A stretch of 64,000 nucleotides of DNA from an uncultured Gemmatimonadales bacterium (GCA_964196025.1 CAXMRT010000214.1:5233-69232); one strand, 5' to 3'. Numbered from the stretch's first letter, positions 2,315-19,458 are shown. Numbers and translations: made by a program. The notes: generated from the letters alone by a model not told the origin.

Positions 2315-5300
2315 ATGATTATGACCGGTAGACTCTCCCTCACCGCGGCACTTACATTGGCCATGATGCCCTTCTCTCTGTTTGCCAACTCGGCACAAGA
2401 GATCTCCACGGCCGCAAACTATCATGGCGGCATCGTCGTCCACCTCGATTCCAATGGCTCTACACTTTCCACAGAGCTCGCCTCACGCCCGCACACTCAA
2501 CTTCAGGTTCTTGAGTCCAACCCCGATGCCCTCGCGGCGAGTCGCACCGCACTTTTTAAGACTGGCGACTATGGTCAAGCCTCCGCAATGCGCTACGACG
2601 GAACCCACCTCCCTTACATCGACAACATGATCAACTTAATCGTCTGCACGAAGAAGTCGACCGTCCCGCACGAAGAAATCCTTCGCGTTCTCAAGCCACT
2701 CGGAACTGCCCATATCAATGGCGCGCTGATCACCAAGCCGTGGCCAGACGAGATTGATGAATGGAATCACTTTCTTCACGGACCAGACAACAATGCCGTC
2801 GCAAACGACACACGCATCAACCAACCCCGCACCATGCAATGGGTCTCCGGTCCAAAATGGGGACGCACACACGAAGGCATGGCCAGCATGAGCGCGATGG
2901 TGACGGCCCAGGGTCGCATGTTCACAATCATGGATGAGGCTCCCCTCGCGTCGATCCGCTTCAATTCCAGCTGGAACCTCGTCGCACGCGACGCTTTCAA
3001 TGGCGCGCTCTTGTGGCAACGAAAAATCCCTATTTGGAACGATCACCTGCGCCACTTCCGATCCGGCCCCGTTCACCTCCCTCGCAGACTCATCGCAATA
3101 AAGGACAAGGTCTACGTGACCCTCGGACTAGGGGCTCCGGTGAGCGAGCTCGATGCACGCTCCGGTAAAACTCTCAAAACATTTTCTGGAACCGAATTTG
3201 CAGAGGAACTCATTTACGACGAGGACGTGCTCTATATGGTTGTGGGTTCGTCGGAGGTTTATCGCCAAGGCGGCGGACTTCACGAACGCAAGGAACCCTC
3301 CGCAACCGACTTCCGCTTCATTGCCGCCTACAGCCCCACAACAGGCAAACAACTCTGGAAGCGATCTATGGAAGACGGGGACTTTCTTCTTCCACAAACA
3401 ATCGCGACCAAAGGTCGCTTCCTGTGCTACCAAAGCACCTTCGGCATGGGCTGCCTAGATGTCAAAACCGGAGAGGTCCTATGGACCCAAGCGCGCCCAT
3501 CCCCAGCAAGACGAATGGGCTTCTCTTCTCCGACCCTCGTGATGACCTCAGAGGTCGTGCTCTGCGCCGACCGCGAGGCCACGGGCGATGCCGCCGCAAA
3601 GGGCAAAGTCGTGTGGGGCGTCAATGGCTGGAACGAGAAGGGCTTCGCACGCAAACAAAGCAATATCGTTCGCGCATTCGCTCTGGAAGACGGCAAGCAA
3701 CTCTGGCAAGCCCCAGGAGGCGAAGGTTATAACTCGCCAGTCGATATTTTCGTGATCAAGAATGTGGCCTATATCAGCAAGAGCTTCACCGGTCACGACA
3801 TCAAGACCGGCAAGGTCATTAAAACAATTGATACCTCCGCACCCGGCGTGAGCATGCCCCACCCACGCTGTCACCGCTACAAAGCCACAAGCGACTTCAT
3901 CATCACCGGCCGCTCCGGCGTGGAGTACCTCGACCTGGAACAAGGAAAATGGGTCGGCAACAACAGCTGGCTGCGCGGCACCTGCCAATACGGAATCATG
4001 CCCGCTAACGGCATCGTCTATGTTCCACCCGACGCCTGCGGCTGCAATCCCACAGTCAAGGTTCCCGGCATCTTCGCCGCAGCCTCGCAGCGCACGAAGG
4101 ACGGCCACATCAACTTCCCCGACGCACCTGTTCTCGTCACCGGCCCCGCATACAAAAAGGTCACCGCTATCCCAGCCGGCAAACCAGACTGGCCCGCGTA
4201 TCGACACGATGTGCAGCGCTCCGGCACCTCACCGGTCACCATCTCCGCCAGCATAAAGAAAGCGTGGTCGACAAAGATCGGCGGCAAGCTCACCCAAGCA
4301 ACACTCGTGGGAGACTCGCTCTTCCTCGCCTCCGTCAATGCCTATACGGTCTACTCTCTCTCTCAAGCCACAGGCGACATCCAGTGGTCGTTCACCGCCA
4401 ACGCGCGGGTCGACAGCGCACCCTCTTACTATAAAGGCTACCTAATCTTCGGTTCAGCCGATGGATGGCTCTACAGCGTCGAGGCTAAAACCGGACGCCT
4501 AGCATGGAAGTTCATGGCCGCACCAGAAGAACGCCTCGTCAACGTGTACGGACGCATGGAATCTCTCTGGCCAGTCCACGGAGCCGCCCTCGTTCAAAAC
4601 GACGCGGTGTGCATCACCGCCGGCCGGTCCACCTATATGGATGGCGGCATTGTCTACTACCAGATAGATCCCATCAGCGGAAACCAACTCTCGCGCAAAG
4701 TATTTTACGACCTCGATCGGGATACCGGCGCGGAACTCACCGGCGAGAAACAAAGGTCCTTTGATATGGCCGGGACCAGCTCCGACATTTTGACGGGCGA
4801 TGGAACACGGATATACCTCAAGCACCTCGCTCTGACTCAAGCGGGTTTGCCCGCCGTCGAAGCCAACCCGCATCTCTATTCGGTCACCGGAATGCTAGAT
4901 GAAGAATGGTTCGTGCGCGCCTACTGGCGCTACGGTATCAAACACGGGGCCGGCTGGTCTAGGTGGGCGCAAGCAGGTAACGAAGTTCCCTTTGGACGCA
5001 TCTTGTGCGTCGATGGCGACAAAACATACGGCTACGGTCGCGGCAAAGTTATCGGCGGACCCAAAGGACATGAGACCGACTCCTATCAACTTTTCTCCTC
5101 CGATAGCACTCCCCCTCCTGCTGACCCACTCACACCCGAACGACATAAGGACGATGAAAAGAACGTCCGTCGGGGAAAACAACAACGAAAACCGAAGCCT
5201 CCTAGGCCAACGACACACTGGGCCAACACGAAATCCATCACCGTCAAAGCCATGGCTGTAAGTCAAACGGCCATCATCACCGCCGGACCCGTCGACGAGG

Positions 5301-5521
5301 GGAAAAAGACTGGGCATCTCGCCTTCGGCAACCCTGAAGAAGCCTTGGCGGCCTTCGAGGGGAAGAAGGACGTCTTCCTTCAGATGATCAGCAAAGAAGA
5401 CGGCCACACGCTGTTCGAACTCAAAATTGATGAGAATCCAGGCTTTGATGGTCTTTCGATCACTCAGGACAAAATTTTTGTAACCGGAATATCCGGAACC
5501 ATAAACTGCTACACACCTTGA
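2315..5521 (+). CDS. Large secreted PQQ-like (BamB/YVTN-type) beta-propeller repeat protein
   Basis: 1068-aa ORF with signal peptide and multiple PQQ-like blade repeats (e.g. GSADGWLYSVEAKTGRLAWKF). No enzyme active site recognised. Confidence 0.7.
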   Translation: MIMTGRLSLTAALTLAMMPFSLFANSAQEISTAANYHGGIVVHLDSNGSTLSTELASRPHTQLQVLESNPDALAASRTALFKTGDYGQASAMRYDGTHLPYIDNMINLIVCTKKSTVPHEEILRVLKPLGTAHINGALITKPWPDEIDEWNHFLHGPDNNAVANDTRINQPRTMQWVSGPKWGRTHEGMASMSAMVTAQGRMFTIMDEAPLASIRFNSSWNLVARDAFNGALLWQRKIPIWNDHLRHFRSGPVHLPRRLIAIKDKVYVTLGLGAPVSELDARSGKTLKTFSGTEFAEELIYDEDVLYMVVGSSEVYRQGGGLHERKEPSATDFRFIAAYSPTTGKQLWKRSMEDGDFLLPQTIATKGRFLCYQSTFGMGCLDVKTGEVLWTQARPSPARRMGFSSPTLVMTSEVVLCADREATGDAAAKGKVVWGVNGWNEKGFARKQSNIVRAFALEDGKQLWQAPGGEGYNSPVDIFVIKNVAYISKSFTGHDIKTGKVIKTIDTSAPGVSMPHPRCHRYKATSDFIITGRSGVEYLDLEQGKWVGNNSWLRGTCQYGIMPANGIVYVPPDACGCNPTVKVPGIFAAASQRTKDGHINFPDAPVLVTGPAYKKVTAIPAGKPDWPAYRHDVQRSGTSPVTISASIKKAWSTKIGGKLTQATLVGDSLFLASVNAYTVYSLSQATGDIQWSFTANARVDSAPSYYKGYLIFGSADGWLYSVEAKTGRLAWKFMAAPEERLVNVYGRMESLWPVHGAALVQNDAVCITAGRSTYMDGGIVYYQIDPISGNQLSRKVFYDLDRDTGAELTGEKQRSFDMAGTSSDILTGDGTRIYLKHLALTQAGLPAVEANPHLYSVTGMLDEEWFVRAYWRYGIKHGAGWSRWAQAGNEVPFGRILCVDGDKTYGYGRGKVIGGPKGHETDSYQLFSSDSTPPPADPLTPERHKDDEKNVRRGKQQRKPKPPRPTTHWANTKSITVKAMAVSQTAIITAGPVDEGKKTGHLAFGNPEEALAAFEGKKDVFLQMISKEDGHTLFELKIDENPGFDGLSITQDKIFVTGISGTINCYTP

Positions 5522-6793: not shown

Positions 6794-8335
6794 ATGAAGT
6801 TTTTCAGTACCATGAGGACTAACCGCGCCCGCACGCTTGCGATCGTCGGTATCGCAACCCTACTCGCGTCTGGATGCGTCACGACCAAGGAGAAGTCCCC
6901 GTCGACTTCCGGCTCCCCAACCGAAAACGAAACACTTCCTGCGACAACGCCCGCCGTCAAAGCCGCGATTCCGGCAGCGGAAACGCTTCCCGGCTCCATC
7001 ACGAATCTAAATTTATCTGAATGTCGCGCAATCGCGTTCCAGAAAAACCGCGGACTACAAACCGCACGCAACAATCTTGCCGTCGCTCTCGCTGGCGGGC
7101 GCGTAGCTGAGGCCGAAATTTTTGCCCCGACCTTGGATGTGTCGCAAACATTCGGCGAAGACAATGATGTCGGCACCGCCCGCGCTGAAATCAACTACCT
7201 CGCCCCACTCGGCATCGAAGTCTCCAGTTTCTTAAGTACCGGTGCCGACAGCGAACGTGACCCAGAAGAGGAGTGGCACAGCAGCGCGGGCATTACACTG
7301 AAGCGCCGCTTGTTTTCTACATCTGAGCGGTGGCGCCTCCGCATGCCACTCACCCAAGCCGAACGCACGATGCTAAAAGCGGGCAACACCCTGCGCCAAA
7401 AAGAACGGGACCTCGGATACACCGTCATGCAGTCCTTCCTCACCGTACAACGCACCGAACGCAGCCTCGCGGTCCGTCAAGCGCGCGTCCTCGACGCAAA
7501 CGACTTCCTCAAGATAACGGAAGAGCGCGTGCGCAATGGCCTCTCCCCAAAGGCCGACATCGTAAATGCGGAAATCTCCCTCAACTCGGCCGAGGCAGAA
7601 GAACTCAGCCAAGAAACCACCCTACAAAGCCAGACAGAGTCGCTGCTAAACACACTCGGTGTAGCGGTCACCAATACACTGGCGATCTCTCCGTTGGCAG
7701 TGACCAATACACCCGAACAGGTCTTCAACCTTACTGCAGATACCAAAAACCTGCTCGCACATCACGAATCGCTTGTAAACAAACGACTCGATATCGCACT
7801 GGCCAAAGTCAACGTCGACATTCAGAAGGACGTTCTCTGGCCCCAAATCGATCTCGCTCTCAAGGGCGCACACCGAAGCGAGGGATCCGAGGCCTTTAAC
7901 GGTGGTACCGAATCGACTGACGACGTTTCCCTCCAGCTCACCTACACAACCGCGCTCGACTTCAAGAAGCGCGACAGGGCGCGCCTCGAGCAAATGAAGC
8001 TCGGCCTCGAGAACTCAGAGGCTGGCTTGGTTGACGAGGAAAACGCGCTCGTCCTTCGCCTGCGCAGCATTCATCGAAATATCGAGCGACTCAAAATTCA
8101 ACTCAGACTCAACGAACAGCGGCTCGCAGCAGAACGACAGAAACTAGCTGCTACGCTCGTGCGCTACGAAGATGGTGGAGTCGACAATCTGGAAGTCACG
8201 CGCGCAAAACAAACGGTTGATAACGCCGAAATCAGCGTCATCAACACCCAAATCGATCTTGTCCTCGCGTTTGAAGAATATCAGACTCTTCTCCCGCCCG
8301 ATGAACCCGTCCAAACAGAACTCACGCGCCCCTAA
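6794..8335 (+). CDS. TolC-family outer-membrane efflux protein
   Basis: The longest ORF begins at 6563, but a likely ATG at 6794 is preceded by GGAAG and followed by a signal/lipobox (LLASGC). Two coiled-coil/beta-barrel repeat halves typical of OEP/TolC (LSECRAIAFQKNRGLQTARNNL...). TAATG overlap with the next gene. Confidence 0.75.
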   Translation: MKFFSTMRTNRARTLAIVGIATLLASGCVTTKEKSPSTSGSPTENETLPATTPAVKAAIPAAETLPGSITNLNLSECRAIAFQKNRGLQTARNNLAVALAGGRVAEAEIFAPTLDVSQTFGEDNDVGTARAEINYLAPLGIEVSSFLSTGADSERDPEEEWHSSAGITLKRRLFSTSERWRLRMPLTQAERTMLKAGNTLRQKERDLGYTVMQSFLTVQRTERSLAVRQARVLDANDFLKITEERVRNGLSPKADIVNAEISLNSAEAEELSQETTLQSQTESLLNTLGVAVTNTLAISPLAVTNTPEQVFNLTADTKNLLAHHESLVNKRLDIALAKVNVDIQKDVLWPQIDLALKGAHRSEGSEAFNGGTESTDDVSLQLTYTTALDFKKRDRARLEQMKLGLENSEAGLVDEENALVLRLRSIHRNIERLKIQLRLNEQRLAAERQKLAATLVRYEDGGVDNLEVTRAKQTVDNAEISVINTQIDLVLAFEEYQTLLPPDEPVQTELTRP

Positions 8336-10905
8336 TGCAGCAGGCGCGCCTTAGCTTCCGAGTAACACCGAACCCTCTTCGTTCGGCCTGCGCCATCCTG
8401 CTGATCAGCGCCCTATCCGGCGGCTGCGGACGCGAACCTGCACCCATAGAAAGCGAACACGTGTGGACCGTCGAAGCTCCACCCGCGGCCTTAGTGCTCA
8501 CCCTCGAAGGCGCTGTCGGGAATCTCCGCGAGGAAATCGTGAAAGCACCTGTTGAACAACTGCGCTTAAAGCAACTCGCCAAAATTGGCGAGATAATGGA
8601 GCCCGGTGCGGTCGTCGTTGAGTACGACACCGACTGGCTAGATCTCTGGATCAAGAGCAACGACGAACATCTCGCGCTCATCGAACGTCGGCTACGCGCA
8701 ACAAAACTCAGTGATCAAAAACGGCGCTATGGCCTGAACGATGACATTCTCGCAAAGGAAACAACTCGAACGGCGAAGCGCCTTGAGATCGAAGAGTCAA
8801 AAACGGTCGATCATCCAGAAAGGGCGATCCTTGAGCGTAGCCTAAAACAGGCAAGAGAACGCTTAGAGACCGCTCGACTCACTCTAGAGGCGCTCAAGAA
8901 GGTCGAGGCCGTAGGAGGCGCATCGGCTGCAGAAGTCCGCACAGCTATGGTGACGTACGAACAAGCGGTCGTCGGAATCAAAATGCCAGAAGTTCGGCTC
9001 ATGGAATTCGATCGAGAGGACGGTAGCGATGACCGCGTACGCCTGGAACAAGAACTCGACTGGCTCAATCTACTCCTGAGAGACGACAAGCAATTCGGCT
9101 CCTTGCGCAGCGAGCTCTCCCGCGCCGTCGCGAAACAAGATCGCGATAAACGAGGCCTCGTGAGCGAGCACCAGCGCCTTTCGGAGGGCGCCGAAGAGGC
9201 CATCCAAGCCTCTACCAACCCCGTCTATCGGACAGAGTCAGGCGGGCTGGTCGCGCCCTCCGACAACGGAGCCGGCGTCCCGATGGTGCCCGGTGCAGCA
9301 CTCGGTGCTCGGAGGATTGTCACCATCATCTCCCCCGGCGACCCGGTCATCGAAGTCAGAGTTCCCGAAGCGATGCGGAACTCTATCCGCCTCAATGAGG
9401 GCGATCAGTGGCTGGTCCGAGTCCGTATCCCCTCACTCGGGGCCCAATGGCTACAAGGAAAACTCACATCGATCAGTCCCGTGAAGGAGTATCGACGCGG
9501 GGGCAGCCCCTACTATAGAGGAAAAGTGGTTCTGGCTTCATCCCCGACCACACTCAGCCCCGGAGTGTCCGCGGTTTGCGAATTAACCTTCCCTGTCCCA
9601 TCCACCGCGGTCGTGATCCCTAGCTGGTGGGCCACACGCGACTTCCGTCCCGTCGCACATCTGGCTTCCGGAAAAAAACAGCGCCTGGTTGCACAGCGGC
9701 TCGGCGACAATCTGCTCGTCACGCGCGGACTCTCTGTCGGGACCAAAGTATTACCCCCCAAGCCAGAGACCGAACGACCACTAATCTTCTACTCCACTGT
9801 CTACTCCTCCGAAAACGATCGCATCGTCGTAAAAGGCTCGGGCTGGGAATGGGCGATCGAAGAACTGGTCGACGATGGCACCTATGTCGAAGCTGGCCAG
9901 GTCGTCTGCCGACTCAGGCGCGTATACGGTCGAAAAGTGCGCGACAATGCCGCCGACCTCGCGAAGCTCCGCGCAGACCTCGGTCTACAGCTGAGCCGCA
10001 TGAATGCAAACGGGGCCCTCGGAGATGCCTTCATGAATTGGCAGCAGGCACTGGGCGCCACCGAAACCAAACGGCTTGCCTATTTGCGGCTTCGTACGAA
10101 AGTGAACGATGTCGCTCTCGCTCAAGCGGAGTCCGATGCCGCACTAGCCGATATCAACCACCGCCAAGTGAAGGCTGACTTCGTCCGATTTTCAGCTCCA
10201 GTCTACGCGGAACTTCGTTCTGAAAATCAACACCGTCAGGACAAGCTCAACATGCAGGTGGGTGGACTTCAATATGAGAAATCGGCCATCGCTGCTGCAG
10301 CGACCCGGCAAGCTCGCATTTGGGACAACGTCCAATACGCTCGTCAAAACTGGCGGATGGCCGCTGACAACGCCACAGTCCTTGACCATGGCTATCAACA
10401 AGCCCGTATCACCCACCGAACGAAGATCGCTAGCGCCGAAGCGAAGCATGTCGACCAAATGAGAGAGGTCGAAGAACTTATTCTCGAGGCTGGGTCACTC
10501 GAACTCACCGCGCCGGTCTCCGGCCGCCTCCACTACAATCCCAAATGTTGGCGCGCTCCCGCCATCGGCGTCACCACCTACACACCCCACCTCTTCAATA
10601 TTCCCCGAGGCACAGAGCGAGAATTTTCCATCCACGTCCCCGGACGCCTCTATCAAGTTCTCAAAGTGGGCCAAGAACTCTCTTTGTACCTGCCCGCAAA
10701 CGGCTCGAAAAAGCTCACCGGGAAAATCACGCACATCGCCGATTATTTCGAAAAACGTCGCGGCAATCGCGGGGGCCGCGGCTCCAGCGATCAAGAAGCG
10801 ACAGTCGACGACGAAAAAACCGTCAAAATTCAAGTGGCATTTTCCGCCCAAAACGAACGAACGGCTCTCCCCGGCGCCACCGTGGTCGTGGAGATCGAGC
10901 CGTGA
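8335..10905 (+). CDS. Periplasmic adaptor (MFP/HlyD-like) lipoprotein with two adaptor modules in tandem
   Basis: Lipobox (LSGGCG). Two successive units of barrel-sandwich, long coiled-coil and beta-barrel; the first ends ...LVAQRLGDNLLVTRGLSVGTKVL, the second ...LPGATVVVEIEP. Stop overlaps the next start (GTGA). Confidence 0.6.
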   Translation: MQQARLSFRVTPNPLRSACAILLISALSGGCGREPAPIESEHVWTVEAPPAALVLTLEGAVGNLREEIVKAPVEQLRLKQLAKIGEIMEPGAVVVEYDTDWLDLWIKSNDEHLALIERRLRATKLSDQKRRYGLNDDILAKETTRTAKRLEIEESKTVDHPERAILERSLKQARERLETARLTLEALKKVEAVGGASAAEVRTAMVTYEQAVVGIKMPEVRLMEFDREDGSDDRVRLEQELDWLNLLLRDDKQFGSLRSELSRAVAKQDRDKRGLVSEHQRLSEGAEEAIQASTNPVYRTESGGLVAPSDNGAGVPMVPGAALGARRIVTIISPGDPVIEVRVPEAMRNSIRLNEGDQWLVRVRIPSLGAQWLQGKLTSISPVKEYRRGGSPYYRGKVVLASSPTTLSPGVSAVCELTFPVPSTAVVIPSWWATRDFRPVAHLASGKKQRLVAQRLGDNLLVTRGLSVGTKVLPPKPETERPLIFYSTVYSSENDRIVVKGSGWEWAIEELVDDGTYVEAGQVVCRLRRVYGRKVRDNAADLAKLRADLGLQLSRMNANGALGDAFMNWQQALGATETKRLAYLRLRTKVNDVALAQAESDAALADINHRQVKADFVRFSAPVYAELRSENQHRQDKLNMQVGGLQYEKSAIAAAATRQARIWDNVQYARQNWRMAADNATVLDHGYQQARITHRTKIASAEAKHVDQMREVEELILEAGSLELTAPVSGRLHYNPKCWRAPAIGVTTYTPHLFNIPRGTEREFSIHVPGRLYQVLKVGQELSLYLPANGSKKLTGKITHIADYFEKRRGNRGGRGSSDQEATVDDEKTVKIQVAFSAQNERTALPGATVVVEIEP

Positions 10906-13904
10906 ACAAATGTTTCACCGCCCACACGTGTTTGATGGCGATGGCATTCGCAACCCACCTACTGTGTGCCGAACCAGACTCGACCCCTTTAGCCAAACCC
11001 CTCCTTTGGACGGCTCCCGATATCAGCCTCCCTGTAACCGTTCAGGTTCAAGGAAAAGTCGAAACAATCCGGTCGAGCATTGTCGAAATGCGGCCCGGCA
11101 GCCCCGACGCAATGACCGTCTGGAAATGCCCCGATGGCATGAAAGCACACATGGGTGACGCTCTTTTTCGAATGGATACAACTACCCTGCAAAATGACTA
11201 CTTCACGCTCCTCGATGACTTCGCAAGTAAACGTATGCTGCTAGAGAGGGCGCGGCTCGAGGGTGAAAAAGAACTCTTCCAGATGAAAGAAGATCTAGCC
11301 CTCGAACTCATGGTCCTCGGTGTCGCCCGCTCCACGGCGGCAGCAGCGGTTGCCGCGGACGACAGTGAAACAGAGATCTCTCGTCAGCAGATCGGGGTTG
11401 CAAAACGCAATGTCGACGTGCAAGCAGCCGAATTATCCCGCAAACGTACACTTCTCGCTCTCGGACAAGAGACGCGCATCCGAATCGAAGACCTGGAGCT
11501 CGCGCTCTCAGCCGCTCGACGCGAAATACGGGTTCGCGAACTAGCCCTCGAAGAAATTGGCGACGGGAGCGACAGAGTCGTCGCACGCCGCGCCCTTTGG
11601 GATGTCACACGACTCGAAGCGGCCTTCGGAGACGGCGCCGATTTCGAAACACTAGAAGACACGCTCGAGAATAACGAGATCGTCGACTTCCAGACAACTC
11701 TTGCTGGCGACTTAGAGAGCATCAGAGGGGGCCTACTCGCCGTTGAAGCGGAACTCCAAGAACTCGCTCGTGGCAGCTGGCCTCACGTACCTCTCCAGAA
11801 ATTGACGATCGCGAACGCCACAGGCGTGGTTCGCACACTGAGCCTCAATGCTCCGCGCGCAACAGAACTCTACAGTAAAAAACAGGGGGCCGGCTGGATC
11901 ACAGCCCCGAGCATCTATCCCTCCAGCCAAGCACTGGTCGTCCAGGGCATGGCAGCGTGGCAGTGCGACCTCCCGCCCGGAGAGTATACGCTGACCTTCA
12001 TGATAGGAGACACCGACGAATGGGGGTGCATGCTCGTGAAAGCTGCGGAGCAAGTGGTCGTAGCCCTCCATCGCTTGGAACCCGAACAAATAGAAACCCT
12101 TAGCGCCAAGGTACACGTGGGCAAGGACGGACTCCGACTCAACTTCGGCTTGCCTCAGAAATCGATCATCGCCCCCGTCGAATGCACCGTCAAAAATCAG
12201 AGCTGGAATCGCCTTGGCCAAAGGATCAGACGCAACTCGCCTGCCCTCTACATTATCCCAGACCCAAAACTAGTCGTGAAAAGCCGAGTGCATCACCTTC
12301 AGGTACCGTTTTTCGAAGGCGCAACTGGGGTCGACCTCCAGATTGAACTCCGAGACAGCAATGGCACATGGGTCCCTGCGGGGAAGGTGTCTGTTGGGGA
12401 CCAACCCATTCCATTCTTCGAAGACGAGGACGAGAGCACTAGCCACCGGCGTTCGAGACGACGCCCTCGCTCAAGTGACGGAGACGGCGAAACGGACCCC
12501 GCGGCACGCACCGCTCGCGAAGTCAGCATCACGGTGCCCAAAGAATATCGGAATGGTTTCGTGTCCGAGTCTCATGTCGACGCGCGCGTAACGGCCTCGC
12601 CTCGCTCAAACACGATCGTTGTCCCCGCGCATTTGGTTCATCAAGGAGAGGACGGTTTAAATGTCCAAGAGGCGGGAGCCACCGTTCGAGTAACCGGGAC
12701 CCGACTCGACGAACATGTGTTTGTGACGGCTGGGCTCACGACGGGAGCCACTCTCGAAATACCGACCGTCGACACGGTCAACGAAGATGCCGACCGCTTT
12801 ACCGGTGGAGTGATCGCAGGAGCCACAACCCCCATTCTCGCACGTCACGACTCCTGGGCGCGCGTCGAAACAATGTTGCCCCACGGCAGTGCAGTGAAAA
12901 AGGGCGACCTAGTCATGCAGATTTTTAGAAACAAACAAGCCGATCAATACAGAAAGGCCGACTCCTCCGCCGCCCAGTCCATCGCCAAATACAAAAAGTC
13001 AGTCGCGCGCCGCAAAGCAACCTTCGACAAACACAAGAAGACCCACGCCGATGCGGTCTACAAGGAAAAGCTCGCGGCCGACCGCGTCGCAGAACACCGC
13101 CGCCGAGACCTAGCAGTTCTGGCCTCCGCAAAAGACAAGAAACAGGAAACAGCCGAACAGCTCGAACTCGTCTCAACACGCGTGCAGGCGTTGAGCGGCC
13201 TCGACTCGTCCCGCCTTGAGCACGACTCTTATAGCAGGCAACAGGATATTCTCCTGTTAAAAACAAAACAGCATAGCCTCAACGAAGTCGCCACCTATCG
13301 GAACTCGGACTATACGGCCCAGCTGCAGGACCGCATGAACTGGGGACAGGCTCGAAAGACACTCACCCGTCGAGAGGCCGGCATCGCTCTAAACCTGAAA
13401 CAGCAGGCGCTGCAAAGCCAACAAGCCCGAAGCGTGCTAGAGCGCGGGGTCGAACAAAACATGCTAAGTAAGGACTTCGAGAGAAACCGTCGCCTGTATG
13501 CGCCCGTCGATGGTCACGTGTTCTATGGCCACGGATACAATGACCTGATGAAGCGCATGGGTCGACTCGACATCGACTTTGTGGTCTGGCAAGGCCTCAA
13601 AATCGCGGACGTACTAGACCTTTCCAACCTCTCCCTTAAAGTGAGCTTACCGGAGCGCTTCTATGATTCACTCCACCTTGACCTAGAGCTCCCCATTGAA
13701 TTAGAAGATTTGGAAGGAAGAAGTGTGCTCGGGCGAGTCATAGATAAGGGCCGAGTGCTGTACTCTCCCAGTGACAGTGAAGACGCTGAGAATGGCGTCA
13801 TTTCCGTTAGTCGCAATTTCGACGTGGTGCTGGCGTTCAGCGTGCCTGAGGATCTGGTTGGACGTATCAAACCCGGACTAAGAGGATCGGTAACCGTAAA
13901 ATGA
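10902..13904 (+). CDS. Second tandem-duplicated periplasmic adaptor (MFP/HlyD-like) with very long coiled coils
   Basis: The same-frame ORF extends upstream to 10545 (an Arg-rich, spurious-looking stretch overlapping the previous gene). A plausible start is GTG 10902 (overlapping the stop) or ATG 10935. Contains MFP C-terminal signature blocks twice (…NVQEAGATVRVTGTRLDEHVFVTAGLTTGATLEIP and …VPEDLVGRIKPGLRGSVTV). ATGA overlap with the next gene. Confidence 0.55.
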   Translation: MNKCFTAHTCLMAMAFATHLLCAEPDSTPLAKPLLWTAPDISLPVTVQVQGKVETIRSSIVEMRPGSPDAMTVWKCPDGMKAHMGDALFRMDTTTLQNDYFTLLDDFASKRMLLERARLEGEKELFQMKEDLALELMVLGVARSTAAAAVAADDSETEISRQQIGVAKRNVDVQAAELSRKRTLLALGQETRIRIEDLELALSAARREIRVRELALEEIGDGSDRVVARRALWDVTRLEAAFGDGADFETLEDTLENNEIVDFQTTLAGDLESIRGGLLAVEAELQELARGSWPHVPLQKLTIANATGVVRTLSLNAPRATELYSKKQGAGWITAPSIYPSSQALVVQGMAAWQCDLPPGEYTLTFMIGDTDEWGCMLVKAAEQVVVALHRLEPEQIETLSAKVHVGKDGLRLNFGLPQKSIIAPVECTVKNQSWNRLGQRIRRNSPALYIIPDPKLVVKSRVHHLQVPFFEGATGVDLQIELRDSNGTWVPAGKVSVGDQPIPFFEDEDESTSHRRSRRRPRSSDGDGETDPAARTAREVSITVPKEYRNGFVSESHVDARVTASPRSNTIVVPAHLVHQGEDGLNVQEAGATVRVTGTRLDEHVFVTAGLTTGATLEIPTVDTVNEDADRFTGGVIAGATTPILARHDSWARVETMLPHGSAVKKGDLVMQIFRNKQADQYRKADSSAAQSIAKYKKSVARRKATFDKHKKTHADAVYKEKLAADRVAEHRRRDLAVLASAKDKKQETAEQLELVSTRVQALSGLDSSRLEHDSYSRQQDILLLKTKQHSLNEVATYRNSDYTAQLQDRMNWGQARKTLTRREAGIALNLKQQALQSQQARSVLERGVEQNMLSKDFERNRRLYAPVDGHVFYGHGYNDLMKRMGRLDIDFVVWQGLKIADVLDLSNLSLKVSLPERFYDSLHLDLELPIELEDLEGRSVLGRVIDKGRVLYSPSDSEDAENGVISVSRNFDVVLAFSVPEDLVGRIKPGLRGSVTVK

Positions 13905-15907
13905 GAAAAATGGCCCTAGCTAGCGTGGCGTGCATCGTCGCAATCATACTCTTCGTCCTAAGCGGCCGGAACGGCGACACGGTACAAACCGAATTTCGGG
14001 CCTTCACGGTAGAACGTGGAGACGTGACAGACGCTCTGCGGACCATCGGCGAGCTAACTCCTCAAGACCCCGTCCTGCTCTACACACCCTTTTCCGGAGA
14101 CATCAATTGGATCGTAGAAGATGGCACGTGGGTAAAAAAAGGTGAACGCGTTTTCAGTCTCGACGAAAAATCCCTGGTGGAACAAGTCTCCACAATGCGA
14201 GCCAATGTCGTGGCACAACGCCAACAACTCCGTCTCGCCATCCTGCAGGCCGGACAAACAGAGCTGGCCGAACAAGAACGCCTAGAAACCATCAATCAGA
14301 CCCTGCATCTGATCAAGCTGCGACACCGCATTTTGACCACCCAACCCAAGGGCGGCAACCGCCTAGTCGAACTCGACTCTCTCGTAAAGCCAATCGAAGC
14401 GCGTCTTCAAACACTCCAGACAGAACTCGAACCCCGCGATCAACGCTACCGCGACACGCGCAGGGTCTACCTGTCCGCCCTCCAAGGATGGCAGGAAAGT
14501 CGCGGCGCTCTACTCGAACTTCAGGCCAAGTCCGACTTTGCCAAAATCACAACCGAAGAGACCATGAGTAAAGAGGTACGCGACCCTGCCGCTAAGAAAG
14601 AAGGTGAAAAAGTGGTCGCCGACCTCGCGCGTGCAAAGGAACTGGGCAATACCCTCCAAAAAGCCTTGGCGGCGGCACGCACGGACTATGACAAGGCACG
14701 CGCGCCCTATGAAGCGGCGGTCGCGGCGATCGAAAAAATTGATTCAGATGCTCAAGAACTCTACGTCGAAATCGAAATCGAAAAACGCGGCCTCTCCGCC
14801 ACCCGCCTCGCTATCGATCGCGACATTGCCAAATTGCAACTCGCCGAAGCTGATCGTAAAGTAGTCAGTGGCAAACGAGCACTTGCCGCGGGTGCTCTCT
14901 CACAAACACAAGCTGATCAACTCATCATAACCGCTAAAGCGCGACGTGATCAGCTCAAGATTCTCGGTCTCCAATACGAGATCGCCGCCCGCCCAGCAAC
15001 AGAAGACGTCGTCGCAGCATCGGAGTCCACCCTCGCAACCGCACAACGCGCAGTTGAGAATGCGCAAACGGTCTACCATCGCGAAATGGGCATCGTGAGC
15101 AACAACATCTCTGTACTAGAAGCGGAGCTGGCAAAGGGAATCGGGGAACTGGACCGCAAGGGCACGGGCTTTCCTGGCGCCATCAAGGGAAGCATCTCCA
15201 TGCTCGAGTCGGAGCTGGAACTTCTGACTGCTGTGGAAACCGAGCGCAAGAAGGAAATTGAGGCTGAACTCACTCAACTTAAAGAAGAGTACGCAGCAGC
15301 CGAAGCAAACCCCGGAAACGTTGTACTTTCACCTAGTGACGGCCTGGTTCGGCTGCGCGAACGCGAAGGTCGCGATACCGATGTCGGTGACAGCTGGAGA
15401 GAGAGAGAAACCCTGGCCATGCTCTATCCGCCGGAAAACATGTCGGTCAAAACAGGTATCAACGAAGTAAACCTTCGCTCCGTAGCCGTCGGCATGCCAT
15501 GCCGCGTTCGGGTCCCCGCTCTCGACATGGAGATTCCGAACGCCAAAGTCGCCCATGTCGCTCGGATCGGTCGCGACAAAGATCAGGACGATGGCGCATA
15601 CAGTCAGAGCACCTCTGGCGTCATAGTCTTTACCCTAACCGTCGATCTCGGCCGTGATGTAGAAGCCTTTCGACAAGGCATGACCGTACACATCGAAATC
15701 GAAACGGGACGACAAAACAATGTCCTGCATCTACCCGCCGCAGCCATTCAGACGGGACCCGACGGCTTCTCCGTCCAGCTGAACAAAAACGGTGGCGCAC
15801 GCACACACGTCGAAGGCGCTGCCTTCGGGGACGATACATTTATCATTACGAGCGGCCTCGCGCAGGGCGATGTGGTCTACCGCGAATACCCCACCTTGGA
15901 CGACTAA
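13901..15907 (+). CDS. Membrane-anchored periplasmic adaptor (HlyD/MacA-like) with ~400-aa coiled coil
   Basis: N-terminal TM anchor (ALASVACIVAIILFVL), barrel-sandwich domain, extended heptad-rich region, and canonical MFP C-terminus (…HLPAAAIQTGPDGFSVQLNKNGGARTHVEGAAFGDDTFIITSGLAQGDVV). Confidence 0.7.
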   Translation: MRKMALASVACIVAIILFVLSGRNGDTVQTEFRAFTVERGDVTDALRTIGELTPQDPVLLYTPFSGDINWIVEDGTWVKKGERVFSLDEKSLVEQVSTMRANVVAQRQQLRLAILQAGQTELAEQERLETINQTLHLIKLRHRILTTQPKGGNRLVELDSLVKPIEARLQTLQTELEPRDQRYRDTRRVYLSALQGWQESRGALLELQAKSDFAKITTEETMSKEVRDPAAKKEGEKVVADLARAKELGNTLQKALAAARTDYDKARAPYEAAVAAIEKIDSDAQELYVEIEIEKRGLSATRLAIDRDIAKLQLAEADRKVVSGKRALAAGALSQTQADQLIITAKARRDQLKILGLQYEIAARPATEDVVAASESTLATAQRAVENAQTVYHREMGIVSNNISVLEAELAKGIGELDRKGTGFPGAIKGSISMLESELELLTAVETERKKEIEAELTQLKEEYAAAEANPGNVVLSPSDGLVRLREREGRDTDVGDSWRERETLAMLYPPENMSVKTGINEVNLRSVAVGMPCRVRVPALDMEIPNAKVAHVARIGRDKDQDDGAYSQSTSGVIVFTLTVDLGRDVEAFRQGMTVHIEIETGRQNNVLHLPAAAIQTGPDGFSVQLNKNGGARTHVEGAAFGDDTFIITSGLAQGDVVYREYPTLDD

Positions 15908-15920
15908 CAGGAATGCACGA

Positions 15921-17921
15921 ATGAGTAAGCCGACGACCAAAACTGAAAACACACCGCTAATCCGTATTCGCGACCTAACGCGTCACTACCACATGGGCCA
16001 ACACACGGTACGCGCTCTCGACGGAATCGATCTCGACATCCACTCTGGCGAATTCGTCGCAATCATCGGCCCCTCCGGCAGCGGCAAGTCGTCCTTAATG
16101 TATATCCTGGGCTGCCTCGATCGTCCGACCAGCGGTCAGTACTCACTCGACGACAAGGAAGTGTCCACCGTTTCCGACCTTCAGCTCTCTCGTACTCGAA
16201 ACCGCGATATCGGCTTCATCTTTCAAGCCTACAACCTGCTCTCCGAATTGAGCGTATTGGAAAACATCGCCCTAGGCCTAGTCTATCGTGGGGCCCCCCG
16301 CCGCGAGCGGCTCGCCTCCGCCGCGGTCCTTGCCGATAGAATGGGCCTCGACGGTCGCCATGATCACCGCTCAAATGAACTCTCAGGTGGCCAGATGCAG
16401 CGCGTGGCCATCTCACGCGCGCTCGCAGGCTCTCCCCACTTGCTCCTCTGCGACGAACCCACGGGCAACCTCGACTCGGTCACCGGCCGCGAAATCATGA
16501 ACGTCTTTCACGAACTCCACGCCCAGGGCAATACGATCATCATCGTCACGCACGACCCTAAAGTGGCCGCTCAAGCCGAGCGCGTGGTTCGCATCGAAGA
16601 TGGGAAAATAGTCTCGGATGAGAAACAGGACGCCGCGAAAAAACCGGCTATGCAAGCCAAGCCCCCACAAGAGACCAAGAACGTGCACTGGCTAGATATC
16701 GCCCGTATTGCGATCAGGGAAGGACTCTTGGCTCACAAACTGAGAAGTCTTCTCACGATGCTCGGCATCGTGTTCGGTATCGCCTCGGTCATCGGCATGA
16801 CCGCTATTACAGAAGGCGGTAAACAACAACAACTTGAACAAATCCGACAGATCGGACTCAACAATATCCAACTCATCGATACAGAGCTCGATGGTCAACG
16901 CCTGAAGGACGCTCGACAACGCAACCCCTTCGGCATCAGCGATAGAGATATCGCGGCGATCCGACGCGAACTCCCCGAGGTCGACCGCCTAGCCGCCTGG
17001 AAAAGCATCAAGGCAGTCGTCACCCGCAACAGTACGCGGGCAGATGAAGCTCGCGTCATCGGTGTCCGTGGAGACTTCGAAGAGGTCGTCAACTTTTTCG
17101 TCGGCCAAGGACGCTTCCTCAACCAACGCGACGCCGACGAATACAGACGCGTCTGTGTCCTCGGCACCGACATCGCGCGCGCGCTAGAGATCGACGATGA
17201 CCCACTGGGCAAAACGGTTGTTGTCGGGGATCAACTTTTTGTGGTGGTAGGCGTGATGCAAAACCGGCCTTTCACAGCCAGCACAGTGAAGGACGTCAAC
17301 ATCGTGAACCGCAATCTCGACCTCTATCTCCCCCATGCGGTCGCCGACCGCTACTATGAGCGTGCCAAGCGCTCAGGCATCTATGAGTCGATATCAATGC
17401 GCATGACCTCAAGCGATCGGCTGCTCTCAGACTCTCATCACATCGAACGCGTCATCCGCAGCCTTCACAATGAAGCCGCCGATTTCGCGGTCTCTGTCCC
17501 ACTCGAAAACCTTCGGCAATCCCAGAAAACCAAAGAAGTCTTCAACGTCATCATCATTGTCATCGCGGGAATGTCCCTTCTCGTTGGCGGAATCGGCATC
17601 ATGAACATCATGCTCGCCAACGTCAGCGAGCGAACTCGCGAAATTGGTATTCGTCGCGCGGTGGGGGCCCCAAAAAACGAGGTCCTGAAACAGTTCCTCG
17701 CTGAAGCATGCGTCATCTCAATTCTCGGCGGTATCCTCGGAGTCTTCACCGGTGTCCTCGGCGGGGAACTCGTCGCAATCCTCTTCGCCTTTCCTGTGGC
17801 CTACAACCTCTGGATCATGGCCATCAGCGTCGGCGTTGCCATGACCGTCGGAATCGGCTTCGGTCTCTACCCCGCATGGACAGCTGCCCGCATGGATCCT
17901 GTCGACGCTCTGCGCTCGTAA
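15921..17921 (+). CDS. macB: MacB-type ABC transporter (fused ATPase plus FtsX-like permease)
   Basis: ATG at 15921 lies 14 nt after the upstream stop; the ORF tool's longer 15792 start overlaps the previous gene. Walker [10 protein letters not shown], signature LSGGQMQR, Walker [13 protein letters not shown], then TM1, a periplasmic domain and an FtsX-like 3-TM bundle (…IGIRRAVGA…DPVDALRS). Confidence 0.85.
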
Positions 17922-17987: not shown

Positions 17988-19457
17988 ATGGTATTCAGTT
18001 CCCTTCTGTTTCTATTCTACTTTCTACCTTTTGTTCTCGCCGCATACTACTTGGCAGTCAAGGTCGGCCGCCGGCCATCTCACCTTGTTCTAACCGCTCT
18101 TAGCTATCTCTTCTACGGCTGGGCAAACCCCGCATTCGTCCTGCTGATGCTCGGCTCCACGATGGTCGACTACCTCTGCGGACTCGTGATTTCTGAACAA
18201 TGGGGAAAAACCTCCAACACCGACTCTTGCCCCGCGCTTACCCCCAAAGGCGCTCGGTCCCGCAAACAACGCTGGGCTCTCGCCCTCTCCATCATCACCA
18301 ACCTTTCTCTGTTAGGCTTCTTTAAATACTTCAACTTCGGCATGGATAGCTGGAACGCGGTCATGTCCGGCATGGGCTTCGATGGCGCAAGCTACGAAAA
18401 CTTCCTGCGCATCACGCTGCCTCTCGGTATCAGCTTTTACACATTCCAATCGATGAGCTATTCGATCGACGTCTATCGCGGCGAGGCCCGAGCCATTCGC
18501 AACCCACTCGACTTCGCCTGCTACGTCGCACTCTTCCCACAACTTGTGGCGGGCCCGATCATCCGATTTCAGGAAGTCGCAGAACAACTCCGAGAACGCA
18601 CCCACACGGTCGACAAATTCGCCCGAGGCATCACCTTCCTCATGCTCGGCTTAACCAAAAAGGTGCTGCTTGCGGATCCCTGCGGGAAGATCGCAGATGA
18701 ATGCTTCGGTGCCGCGGGGCTATACGCCATCGATGCCTGGGCCGGCATCATCGGCTACGCCTTTCAAATCTACTTTGACTTCAGCGCCTACTCGGACATG
18801 GCCATTGGACTCGGACTAATGTTCGGCTTCATCTTCCCCAAGAATTTCGATTCCCCCTACCACGCCCGCTCAATCACAGAATTCTGGCAACGATGGCACA
18901 TCTCACTTTCCACCTGGCTGCGCGACTACCTCTACATCCCACTCGGCGGCAACCGAAAGGGTGACGGGCGCACCTACGTGAACCTCGCAATGGTCATGCT
19001 TCTAGGCGGACTCTGGCACGGCTCCTCTTGGAACTTTGTGATCTGGGGCGCGATTCACGGAACAATGCTGGCCGCTGAACGCATGATGGGAAAGAACTCC
19101 TTCTACGCACGACTACCCAAACCTCTCTCCATCGGCATCACCTTCCTCGTCGTCTGTGTCGCATGGGTCTTCTTCCGCGCTGCGACGCTTGGCGACGCGA
19201 CCACCTACCTCGCCGCCATGTTCGGCATGGGGGTCGACACGACCGCCGCCGGCCTCGTCTCTGGCCTCGCCTTCACTCCCTATCACCTCGCCACTCTCGT
19301 GCTCACTGCGGTCATCGTCTGGGCGGGGCCACAAACGTGGGACTTCACACGCGTCCTGACATGGCCTAAGGCCGTCGCAATCACACTCTGCTTCATTCTC
19401 GCTTTAACGCTTCTCGCTGCCACTAGCTTTCACCCCTTCATCTACTTTATCTTCTAA
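17988..19457 (+). CDS. MBOAT-family membrane-bound O-acyltransferase (AlgI/DltB-like)
   Basis: Multi-TM protein with MBOAT signature regions (FYTFQSMSYSIDVYRG; WHISLSTWLRDYLYIPLGGNRKG; conserved His). Located 66 nt downstream of macB. Confidence 0.85.
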   Translation: MVFSSLLFLFYFLPFVLAAYYLAVKVGRRPSHLVLTALSYLFYGWANPAFVLLMLGSTMVDYLCGLVISEQWGKTSNTDSCPALTPKGARSRKQRWALALSIITNLSLLGFFKYFNFGMDSWNAVMSGMGFDGASYENFLRITLPLGISFYTFQSMSYSIDVYRGEARAIRNPLDFACYVALFPQLVAGPIIRFQEVAEQLRERTHTVDKFARGITFLMLGLTKKVLLADPCGKIADECFGAAGLYAIDAWAGIIGYAFQIYFDFSAYSDMAIGLGLMFGFIFPKNFDSPYHARSITEFWQRWHISLSTWLRDYLYIPLGGNRKGDGRTYVNLAMVMLLGGLWHGSSWNFVIWGAIHGTMLAAERMMGKNSFYARLPKPLSIGITFLVVCVAWVFFRAATLGDATTYLAAMFGMGVDTTAAGLVSGLAFTPYHLATLVLTAVIVWAGPQTWDFTRVLTWPKAVAITLCFILALTLLAATSFHPFIYFIF

Positions 19458-19458
19458 T

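What the first reader, a model, noticed from the sequence alone, without database searches (positions are those of the whole stretch)
8335..15907. Internally duplicated (tandem) membrane-fusion proteins with extremely long coiled coils
The 856-aa and ~1000-aa proteins each contain two complete adaptor units (barrel-sandwich, hairpin, beta-barrel, with the MFP C-terminal signature seen twice). The 668-aa protein has a single unit with a coiled-coil region of about 400 aa. That gives about five adaptor modules in three genes. Covalently linked adaptor dimers are rare. The very long hairpins would suit an unusually wide periplasm, as proposed for PVC bacteria.
Basis: seen in the sequence. Interest (0 to 1): 0.7.

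Follow-up and report, generated by a model that had tools for sequence, protein, structure and literature searches.

The report
Tandem efflux-pump adaptors in PVC bacteria
Three neighbouring genes encode the periplasmic "adaptor" parts of a MacB-type efflux pump; two of them are natural head-to-tail fusions of two complete adaptors and the third carries a helical arm twice as long as the others, an arrangement conserved in Planctomycetota and Kiritimatiellia and not found in the literature searched here.

Summary
Window 8335-15907 holds three translationally coupled genes: A (856 aa), B (1000 aa, true start GTG 10902) and C (668 aa). They lie between a TolC-like outer-membrane factor and a MacB-type ABC transporter.

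With a 47-member family profile, the two halves of A align over 351 columns (hhalign E=6e-28; reversed or shuffled controls E>=0.018). B is a collinear paralogue of A (N halves 1e-37, C halves 4e-39) and its halves also match each other. Its first unit carries an extra ~115-aa beta domain. Only the first units have a membrane-proximal domain. C is a single MacA-like unit whose helical insert is 386 aa.

Helical lengths are tightly conserved: about 194-204 residues in all four A/B hairpins and 386-391 in C. The OMF-A-B-C-MacB operon recurs in Planctomycetota and Kiritimatiellia at ~20% identity.

Fused adaptors (DSY0927) and two-adaptor pumps (TriABC) are known. A triad with two tandem adaptors and a MacB pump did not turn up in my literature searches. 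I rate it a new variant of a known kind.

Stoichiometry, the topology of C's helical domain, the substrate and the "wide periplasm" idea remain untested. Both AlphaFold models were of low confidence.

The parts
6794..8335 (+). Outer-membrane factor (TolC/OprM-like). Probable start is ATG 6794 (513 aa) with lipobox LLASGC. The stop overlaps the A start (TAATG).
   Evidence: Pfam OEP E=2e-32 in two stretches; TIGR01844 2e-26. Start and length; junction. Orthologues are 500-525 aa and sit upstream of A in L002, L003, L007 and L010.
8335..10905 (+). Gene A, 856 aa: a lipoprotein (signal peptide, Cys31) made of two adaptor units in tandem.
   Evidence: Lipobox-type Cys found by a strict pattern in 27 of 47 family members; several others, including the window protein (SGGC), have similar motifs the pattern missed.
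8494..9768 (+). A unit 1 (aa 54-478): lipoyl N-half, hairpin (aa 98-296, tip G194), lipoyl C-half, beta-barrel, membrane-proximal domain (about aa 419-478).
   Evidence: hhalign against unit 2. HlyD_3 at 327-393. A 398-486 aligns to AcrA 278-373 and MexA 240-323. Tip and length.
9778..10902 (+). A unit 2 (aa 482-856): beta-barrel strand, lipoyl N-half, hairpin (aa 528-726, tip P622..S629), lipoyl C-half, beta-barrel. No membrane-proximal domain.
   Evidence: HlyD_3 at 724-811. MexJ 122-238 aligns to profile positions 686-806, and MacA chimera 4dk1 18-126 to 468-574.
10902..13904 (+). Gene B, 1000 aa (GTG start overlapping A's stop): signal peptide without a conserved Cys, then two adaptor units in tandem. 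Paralogue of A.
11004..12770 (+). B unit 1 (aa 35-623): lipoyl N-half, hairpin (aa 91-294, tip G188), inserted beta domain, lipoyl C-half (KSIIAPVECTV 419-429), beta-barrel with charged low-complexity loop (aa 505-535), membrane-proximal domain.
   Evidence: A-N against B-N E=1e-37 over A 43-477 and B 35-623. B 407-558 matches B 851-994 at E=7e-7. Alignment.
11799..12155 (+). Inserted beta-rich domain in B (about aa 300-418), conserved in all 9 B-family sequences (motifs RGxGW and W.C.lP.G.Y.v..G.GD..dW). Fold unassigned.
   Evidence: Pfam gives only a weak hint: AGA-YXIM galactose-binding-like, E=0.007, in one orthologue.
12798..13901 (+). B unit 2 (aa 633-1000): lipoyl N-half, hairpin (aa 674-866), lipoyl C-half (LYAPVDGHV), beta-barrel. 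No membrane-proximal domain.
   Evidence: A-C against B-C E=3.6e-39. TIGR01730 at 798-945, E=1.7e-3.
13901..15907 (+). Gene C, 668 aa (ATGA overlap with B's stop): N-terminal TM helix and a single MacA-like adaptor unit with a 386-residue helical insert.
14162..15319 (+). C helical region (aa 88-473). Conserved breaks: P149/G152, P164, indel loop 221-239, P269, EIEKRG 292-297, G324, G331, P365, FP 424-425. Topology unresolved.
15320..15889 (+). C lipoyl C-half, beta-barrel and membrane-proximal domain (aa 474-663).
   Evidence: MacA 4dk0 114-350 aligns to C 435-663. TIGR01730 at 455-659, E=4e-14.
15921..17921 (+). MacB-type ABC transporter (NBD, 4 TM helices and periplasmic core domain), 666 aa from ATG 15921.
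   Evidence: Pfam ABC_tran, MacB_PCD and FtsX. NF007826 MacB E=1.6e-137 but 459 bits, below the 966-bit cutoff. Start.

Best explanation
The region encodes the adaptor layer of a MacB-type (ABC) tripartite envelope-spanning exporter. That layer is built from three different, co-translated adaptor proteins instead of one.

A is a lipoprotein and B is a signal-peptide protein with no conserved anchor. Each is a natural covalent dimer of adaptor units. The first unit has all four domains: lipoyl, roughly 95-residue-per-arm alpha-hairpin, beta-barrel and membrane-proximal. The second has all but the membrane-proximal domain. C is TM-anchored and MacA-like. It is a single unit whose helical arm region is twice as long.

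Shown: the domain composition, the internal duplication, the A/B paralogy, the operon, and the conservation of the operon and of the helical lengths.

Inferred: the three proteins co-assemble around one MacB dimer beneath one trimeric outer-membrane factor. A and B each supply a side-by-side 'dimer unit' of the kind proposed for AcrA and TriA/TriB.

My preferred guess is a pseudo-two-fold hexamer A1:B1:C2. Each MacB protomer would face three adaptor units, the first-unit hairpin tips (RLS-like consensus in the family) would engage the outer-membrane factor, and C's double-length arm would extend further. The substrate is unknown.
For: Pump context: OEP, MacB_PCD/FtsX/ABC_tran and MacB NF007826.

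Coupled genes: TAATG, GTGA and ATGA junctions.

Adaptor identity:
- HlyD_3 twice in A.
- PDB profile hits to MexC, MexJ, AcrA, the TriA-TriB fusion 6vej, MexA, MacA and EmrA, with the barrel of one PDB chain aligning to both units.
- C matches MacA 4dk0 at E=3e-8.
- Foldseek with the low-confidence A model returns almost only adaptors among its top 50 hits.

Duplication: E=6.4e-28 with clean controls. Single-unit MFPs match either half.

Conservation:
- About 45 full-length family clusters at 17-42% identity.
- The A-B-C-MacB gene order is complete in L001, L003, L007, L009 and L010, and A-B-C is seen on the truncated contig L012. In L013 the B homologue is split into two ORFs.
- Helical insert lengths are 199+-2, 201+-2, 204+-1 and 194+-0.5, and 386-391 for C. 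Tips sit at the midpoints in A and B.

RLS-like tip consensus R186-x3-L190-x3-G194-x2-S197 in unit 1 of the A family. The motif is defined in PMC3391258.

Precedents for dimer units come from PMC4446572 and PMC4338810.
Against: - No structural or biochemical evidence for co-assembly or stoichiometry. Both AlphaFold2 models are low confidence (pLDDT 48 and 36.5).
- 2+2+1 units do not make six without a second C, while translational coupling would suggest equimolar synthesis.
- The window's own A lacks the Arg and Leu of the RLS motif (A186, V190).
- B has no Pfam hit at all. All three proteins score far below the TIGR01730 cutoff.
- Arms of about 95 and about 180-190 residues are hard to fit into one symmetric tube.
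Confidence: 0.8

Rival explanations
1. Periplasm-ruler reading. The long, length-conserved hairpins exist because PVC bacteria have an unusually wide periplasm that the pump must span. The tandem fusion is incidental.
For: Named family members are Planctomycetota, Phycisphaeraceae and Kiritimatiellia. Helical lengths are held to within a few residues at about 20% identity, as expected for a ruler. A/B helical inserts (194-204 residues) exceed EmrA's 168 residues / 127 A (PMC4158417).
Against: - Two very different arm lengths coexist in one operon.
- The outer-membrane factor is of ordinary size at 513 aa.
- No other adaptor of the same genome could be compared, since none is in the window.
- Periplasm width was not measured, and one contig is binned as Burkholderiales.
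Confidence: 0.35
2. Alternative-adaptor reading. A, B and C do not co-assemble. Each forms its own oligomer (A3, B3 as trimers of fused dimers, C6) with the same MacB and outer-membrane factor, giving three pumps with different substrates or conditions.
For: A trimer of fused dimers gives exactly six units and matches functional engineered AcrA-AcrA fusions (PMC4446572). A and B have diverged to roughly 19% identity.
Against: The triad is strictly co-conserved in fixed order with overlapping stop/start codons across deep divergence. Only C has a TM anchor like MacA, and B has no conserved anchor.
Confidence: 0.15
3. Six-hairpin heterotrimer. C's helical region holds two or three hairpin equivalents rather than one long hairpin. 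One copy each of A, B and C would then supply 2+2+2 hairpins to a six-membered alpha-tube above only five beta-scaffolds, leaving a lateral gap.
For: C's helical insert (386-391 residues) is almost exactly twice the A/B value of 194-204. There is no conserved Gly/Pro at C's midpoint, but several fully conserved breaks lie elsewhere. An up-down count of helices between the breaks balances to within about 6 residues for a three-hairpin fold (my arithmetic). Coupled translation suggests 1:1:1.
Against: - No internal repeat in C's helical region (E>=0.023).
- No conserved turn at the positions (about 184 and 375) expected for two hairpins of 95-residue arms.
- A single hairpin with arms of 181 and 175 residues and a 28-residue cap (P269-G297) also balances.
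- A five-membered lipoyl/barrel ring is unprecedented.
Confidence: 0.12
4. Artefact: the long proteins are two adjacent adaptor genes merged by assembly or frameshift error.
For: In one MAG (L013) the B homologue is split into two ORFs at the inter-unit linker.
Against: Uninterrupted 800-930-aa A-type and 1000-1095-aa B-type ORFs occur in dozens of independent assemblies from NCBI, JGI, ENA and Logan. In L013 the second ORF would lack a signal peptide, so that is the likelier error.
Confidence: 0.02

Closest known systems
MacAB-TolC (ABC-type tripartite efflux pump; MacA6:MacB2:TolC3)
   Same: Same transporter type: fused NBD, FtsX-like 4-TM and periplasmic core domain. There is a TolC-like outer-membrane factor. 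C is a TM-anchored MacA-like adaptor with lipoyl, hairpin, barrel and membrane-proximal domains.
   Different: - Three different adaptor genes instead of one, two of them tandem fusions.
- Helical inserts of 194-204 and 386 residues, against MacA's 67 A hairpin (PMC4158417).
- MacB scores 459 bits against the 966-bit equivalog cutoff.
DSY0927 of Desulfitobacterium hafniense (natural fused dimeric adaptor of an ABC transporter)
   Same: One polypeptide holds two different adaptor units and is associated with an ABC transporter (PMC4338810, PMC4446572).
   Different: DSY0927 is from a Gram-positive organism and its N-terminal half has no coiled coil (PMC4338810). Here both halves carry hairpins of about 200 residues, there are two such proteins plus a third adaptor, and an outer-membrane factor is present. 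Sequence relationship not tested.
TriABC-OpmH of Pseudomonas aeruginosa (two different adaptors, TriA and TriB, both required) and engineered AcrA-AcrA / TriA-TriB fusions
   Same: Hetero-oligomeric adaptor layer with non-equivalent protomers. Fused dimers are functional, which supports a 'trimer of dimers'. The TriA-TriB fusion chain 6vej_P is among the PDB hits (PMC4338810).
   Different: TriABC uses an RND transporter, its adaptors are separate genes in nature, and its hairpins are short. Here the fusion is natural, the transporter is MacB-type, and there are three adaptor genes.
EmrA (MFS adaptor) and HlyD (type I secretion adaptor), the long-hairpin adaptors
   Same: Very long two-stranded coiled-coil hairpins (EmrA: 168 residues, 127 A). 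EmrA also lacks the membrane-proximal domain, as the second units do here (PMC4158417). EmrA is among the PDB and Foldseek hits.
   Different: EmrA and HlyD are single-unit proteins forming homo-oligomers. C's helical region is 2.3 times EmrA's.

Membership tests
Periplasmic adaptor / membrane fusion protein (HlyD family) | Lipoyl (barrel-sandwich) domain split by an alpha-helical hairpin, present in each proposed unit | tested here: met
   Lipoyl N-halves of A units 1 and 2 align at E=7e-11. Helical regions lie between the lipoyl halves. PDB chains MexC/MexJ/AcrA align to unit 1's N-half and MacA chimera 4dk1 to unit 2's N-half. B follows by homology to A. C matches MacA.
Periplasmic adaptor / membrane fusion protein (HlyD family) | Beta-barrel domain after the second lipoyl half | tested here: met
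   Pfam HlyD_3 at A 327-393 and 724-811. Beta parts of the two units align at E=9e-18. The MexJ barrel aligns to both units. B 407-558 matches B 851-994. 29 of 47 family members hit HlyD_3.
Periplasmic adaptor / membrane fusion protein (HlyD family) | Membrane-proximal domain (present in RND and MacB adaptors) | tested here: inconclusive
   Present in A unit 1 (A 398-486 aligns to AcrA 278-373), in B unit 1 by homology, and in C (MacA up to residue 350). Absent from the second units, where the proteins end right after the barrel. EmrA also lacks it (PMC4158417).
Periplasmic adaptor / membrane fusion protein (HlyD family) | Score above curated family thresholds | tested here: inconclusive
   A passes Pfam HlyD_3 (36.7 against 22.2 bits). 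B has no Pfam hit and C has no HlyD hit. TIGR01730 gives 27.7, 17.4 and 52.4 bits against a 94.9 cutoff. Membership rests on profile-profile and PDB-profile matches.
Periplasmic adaptor / membrane fusion protein (HlyD family) | RLS (RxxxLxxxxxxS) motif at the hairpin tip that binds the outer-membrane factor | tested here: inconclusive
   The family consensus of A unit 1 has R-x3-L-x3-G-x2-S exactly at the midpoint tip, but the window protein has A186, V190, G194, S197. B unit 1 has R180, L184, G188, T191. Unit 2 tips and C differ. Motif defined in PMC3391258.
Periplasmic adaptor / membrane fusion protein (HlyD family) | Encoded with an inner-membrane transporter and an outer-membrane factor | tested here: met
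   OMF-A-B-C-MacB operon, conserved in relatives.
MacAB-TolC-type pump | MacB architecture: N-terminal NBD, 4 TM helices, large periplasmic core domain | tested here: met
   ABC_tran at 76-224, MacB_PCD at 319-522, FtsX at 589-703. NF007826 covers 54-707 at E=1.6e-137, but below the equivalog cutoff.
MacAB-TolC-type pump | A single adaptor species forming a homohexamer | tested here: not met
   Three distinct adaptor genes, two of them tandem. Oligomeric state itself is not testable with these tools.
Natural fused dimeric adaptor (DSY0927 type) | Two adaptor units in one polypeptide | tested here: met
Natural fused dimeric adaptor (DSY0927 type) | N-terminal half without a coiled coil; Gram-positive host (as described in PMC4338810) | tested here: not met
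   Both halves of A and B carry helical inserts of about 194-204 residues. The operon has an outer-membrane factor and the hosts are PVC bacteria.
Natural fused dimeric adaptor (DSY0927 type) | Sequence homology to DSY0927 beyond general adaptor similarity | not tested
TriABC-type two-adaptor pump | RND inner-membrane transporter with two separate, individually required adaptors | tested here: not met
   The transporter is MacB-type ABC. The requirement for each adaptor is not testable here.

The most novel reading that the evidence does not exclude
The operon specifies an obligate asymmetric adaptor machine in which single copies of A, B and C co-assemble. The four ~95-residue-arm hairpins of A and B, plus a helical domain in C holding exactly twice as many residues, would form a six-hairpin duct, or a four-plus-two duct with C's arm running on along the outer-membrane factor towards the outer membrane. 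This would sit above an incomplete five-membered beta-domain ring. It would be a genetically hard-wired stoichiometry and a lateral opening never seen in tripartite pumps, and a PVC-specific solution for spanning their envelope.
Probability: 0.15. Interest if true: 0.85.

Novelty: new variant of a known kind. Interest (0 to 1): 0.62.

Why it matters
How many adaptor protomers a tripartite pump uses, and whether the functional unit is a dimer, has been argued from engineered fusions and from one two-adaptor pump. Here nature has fixed the answer in the gene structure. There are two different covalent adaptor dimers plus a third adaptor, all length-locked and conserved across two PVC lineages.

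That gives a system where protomer positions are non-equivalent by construction. The roles of individual positions (outer-membrane-factor contact, transporter contact, presence or absence of the membrane-proximal domain) can therefore be dissected genetically and structurally.

It also offers a handle on envelope dimensions and export in Planctomycetota and Kiritimatiellia, whose envelope biology is still debated. The family is currently annotated only as 'hypothetical' or 'biotin/lipoyl-containing protein'.

Tried and rejected
- BLASTP self-comparison found no internal repeat. hhalign with 3-4-sequence profiles gave only E=0.056. Taken alone these would have wrongly refuted the finding; a deeper family profile was needed.
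- AlphaFold2 of A (4-sequence alignment, pLDDT 48) and of B (2 sequences, pLDDT 36.5) was too poor for fold or topology claims. I used only secondary structure.
- Foldseek with the B model gave no hit at E<=1e-3, only generic coiled coils. The afdb50 library was unavailable.
- The word-indexed homologue search returned only 4, 2 and 5 proteins, even with the 47-sequence profile. The exhaustive search was what revealed the family.
- The search for related loci failed with the diverse alignment. With a subgroup alignment it gave only 5 loci.
- Pfam on B's inserted domain gave no significant family.
- An internal-repeat test on C's helical region, and alignment of it to the A/B hairpins, were not significant. 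C's tip and topology therefore stay unresolved.
- A regex for a literal RLS motif in the window proteins found none in A or C.
- No other adaptor gene is in the window for a within-genome comparison of hairpin lengths.
- The V. cholerae VarABCDEF paper was read as a possible multi-adaptor MacB system. It has one adaptor plus a 40-aa remnant.
- The artefact (gene-merger) explanation was rejected on the number of independent assemblies.


Full report
**What is at the coordinates**

The interval 8335-15907 is filled by three + strand genes.
- Gene A is 8335-10905 (856 aa).
- Gene B is listed mechanically as ORF 10545-13904. Its first 119 codons are the alternative frame of the end of A. The plausible start is GTG 10902, which overlaps A's stop as GTGA and gives 1000 aa. 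Orthologues are 1004-1095 aa.
- Gene C is 13901-15907 (668 aa), overlapping B's stop as ATGA.

Upstream, with a TAATG overlap, lies a TolC/OprM-like outer-membrane factor: Pfam OEP E=2e-32, probable start 6794, 513 aa, lipobox LLASGC.

Fourteen bases downstream of C starts a MacB-type ABC transporter, 15921-17921. It has ABC_tran, MacB_PCD and FtsX. NF007826 MacB gives E=1.6e-137 but 459 bits against a 966-bit cutoff.

So the three genes are the adaptor genes of a MacB-type tripartite exporter.

**Is the internal duplication real?**

Direct tests on the single sequences fail. BLASTP finds no self-hit. Profiles of 3-4 close orthologues give only E=0.056 between the halves of A.

Library scans give partial support.
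- Pfam HlyD_3 hits A twice, at 327-393 and 724-811.
- B has no Pfam hit and only a weak TIGR01730 match in its second half. C matches TIGR01730 at 455-659.
- The word-indexed homologue search found almost nothing.

The exhaustive HMMER search of 1.84 billion representatives with the A profile found 104 proteins. About 45 are full-length 770-930-aa relatives at 17-42% identity. It also found ordinary single-unit adaptors of 420-570 aa. These match either A 19-477 (P0081, P0085, P0091) or A 480-807 (P0053, P0064, P0090, P0096).

With a 47-sequence family alignment, the N half (A 54-418) and C half (A 482-855) align collinearly over 351 columns at probability 99.8%, E=6.4e-28.

Controls:
- The reversed C half gives E=0.018 and three column-shuffled versions give E=0.43-0.58.
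- The non-helical parts alone remain significant: lipoyl C-half plus barrel E=9e-18, and lipoyl N-halves E=7e-11.
- The helical parts alone give only E=1.4e-4.

The signal is therefore not coiled-coil bias.

A profile search of PDB sequences returns only adaptors: MexC, MexJ, AcrA, the engineered TriA-TriB fusion 6vej, MexA, MacA, EmrA and ZneB. The MexJ barrel aligns to both unit 1 (348-461) and unit 2 (686-806), and a MacA chimera aligns to the start of unit 2. A 398-486 aligns to the barrel end and membrane-proximal domain of AcrA/MexA.

**B and C**

B is a collinear paralogue of A: N halves E=1e-37 (A 43-477 with B 35-623) and C halves E=3.6e-39. Cross-matches (A-N with B-C at 2e-18; B-N with B-C in two pieces at about 1e-6) show that the duplication predates the A/B split.

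B's first unit has an extra conserved beta-rich domain of about 115 aa between the hairpin and the canonical 'IxAPxxG' start of the second lipoyl half (KSIIAPVECTV 419-429). It also has a charged low-complexity loop in the barrel (505-535). Pfam gives only a weak galactose-binding-like hint for the insert.

In both A and B the second unit ends right after the barrel, so only the first units have a membrane-proximal domain.

C aligns to MacA (4dk0, E=3e-8) as 32-128 with 7-103 and 435-663 with 114-350. It is therefore one MacA-like unit with a very large helical insertion.

Anchors differ. A has a lipobox Cys; a strict pattern finds one in 27 of 47 family members, and others carry close variants. 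B has a signal peptide with no conserved Cys. C has an N-terminal TM helix.

**Structure prediction**

AlphaFold2 with the shallow permitted alignments gave low-confidence models: A pLDDT 48 and B pLDDT 36.5. I use only their secondary structure, which is alpha (about 190 aa), beta, alpha (about 180-200 aa), beta. Foldseek with the A model nevertheless returned almost only adaptor structures among its top 50 hits. The B model gave nothing significant.

**Lengths**

I measured between conserved lipoyl anchor columns.

| Helical insert | Length in residues | Sequences |
|---|---|---|
| A unit 1 | 199+-2 | 47 |
| A unit 2 | 201+-1.7 | 47 |
| B unit 1 | 204+-1 | 9 |
| B unit 2 | 194+-0.5 | 9 |
| C | 386-391 | 6 |

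In A and B a conserved Gly/Pro or indel sits at the exact midpoint (offsets 93-97), so the arms are about 95 residues.

On the EmrA scale (168 residues = 127 A, called exceptionally long; MacA 67 A, AcrA 58 A; PMC4158417), the A/B hairpins would be about 145-150 A. C would be about 270-290 A if it is one two-stranded hairpin.

C has no conserved breaker at its midpoint, but it has fully conserved breaks elsewhere: P149/G152, P164, G297 in EIEKRG, P365 and P425. Two readings both balance arithmetically:
- one hairpin with arms of 181 and 175 residues and a 28-residue cap;
- a three-hairpin up-down bundle.

Repeat tests and alignment to the A/B hairpins are not significant. The topology of C is unresolved.

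The A-family unit-1 tip has an RLS-like consensus (R-x3-L-x3-G-x2-S), the motif that binds TolC (PMC3391258). The window protein itself keeps only G194 and S197. Unit-2 tips differ (P622..S629).

**Distribution**

The gene order A-B-C-MacB recurs in close relatives (L001, L003) and in loci whose A protein is only about 21-23% identical (L007, L009, L010). The outer-membrane factor is adjacent upstream in L003, L007 and L010, is cut by the contig end in L001, and is absent from L009. L012 is a truncated contig showing A-B-C only.

Source names, where present, are Kiritimatiellia, Planctomycetota and Phycisphaeraceae MAGs. One 8-kb contig is binned as Burkholderiales.

Flanking genes are not conserved, so no cargo can be inferred. 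The MBOAT/AlgX pair downstream in the window is absent from the other loci.

Source names, where any exist, are mostly 'hypothetical protein' or 'biotin/lipoyl-containing protein'.

**Interpretation**

Shown: two natural tandem adaptors and one long-armed single adaptor, in a conserved, translationally coupled MacB-type operon.

Inferred: they co-assemble. Fused and paired adaptors have precedents, all taken as evidence that the functional unit is a dimer (PMC4446572, PMC4338810):
- DSY0927, a natural fusion whose N half lacks a coiled coil, from a Gram-positive;
- TriA/TriB;
- functional engineered AcrA-AcrA fusions.

By analogy, A and B would each be a side-by-side dimer unit. With MacA6:MacB2:TolC3 as the template, A1:B1:C2 gives six units with pseudo-two-fold symmetry. 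That is my preferred but untested guess.

Alternatives are separate A3, B3 and C6 assemblies, or a 1:1:1 complex in which C's double-size helical domain supplies two hairpin equivalents.

It is untested, and it does not by itself explain two arm lengths in one operon.

**Novelty and verdict**

My literature searches found no description of a pump with three adaptors of which two are tandem fusions, nor of this PVC family.

It is built from known parts and works within a known kind of machine, so I rate it a new variant of a known kind, with moderately high interest.

Noticed in passing
L013:11465-14630 (Planctomycetota MAG JBBROQ010000002.1): The B homologue is split into two ORFs exactly at the inter-unit linker, with a GTGA stop/start overlap. 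The second ORF would start 'MTASFAGEVVAG' and lack a signal peptide. This is either a 1-nt assembly error or a genuine unfused variant.
   Followed up: partly
window 11799-12155 (B aa ~300-418): A conserved beta-rich domain is inserted between the hairpin and the second lipoyl half of B's first unit (motifs RGxGW and W.C.lP.G.Y.v..G.GD..dW). The only hint is a weak galactose-binding-like match (E=0.007) in one orthologue. It could be a carbohydrate- or peptidoglycan-binding module.
   Followed up: partly
window 12414-12506 (B aa 505-535): A charged low-complexity loop (FFEDEDESTSHRRSRRRPRSSDGDGETDP) sits inside the first beta-barrel of B. At the same place distant orthologues carry longer Arg/Gly/Pro/Ala-rich insertions of variable length.
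   Followed up: no
window 17988-22230: Directly downstream of MacB lie an MBOAT (AlgI-like) acyltransferase and a 923-aa protein with two AlgX-type SGNH stretches. Together they form a polysaccharide O-acetylation pair. They are not adjacent to the operon in L001, L003, L007 or L010.
   Followed up: partly
window 2315-5521: A 1068-aa PQQ-like/BamB-type beta-propeller protein lies upstream. A 1042-aa homologous architecture also sits upstream of the outer-membrane factor in the close relative L002.
   Followed up: no
window 10545-10901: The 119-codon N-terminal extension of the mechanical ORF 10545-13904 is Arg/Pro/Ser-rich. It is simply the +1 frame of the end of gene A and is not part of B.
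   Followed up: yes
window 1-64000: GC skew is negative in every 2-kb window (-0.005 to -0.28). AT skew is strongly positive over the adaptor genes (0.17-0.25), which fits their Ala/Glu/Arg/Gln-rich helical coding.
   Followed up: no
L012 (MAG binned as Burkholderiales, JBBSCX010000167.1): This is the only family member not attributed to PVC bacteria, on a 7.9-kb contig with the same A-B-C order. It is probably mis-binned, but lateral transfer is not excluded.
   Followed up: no
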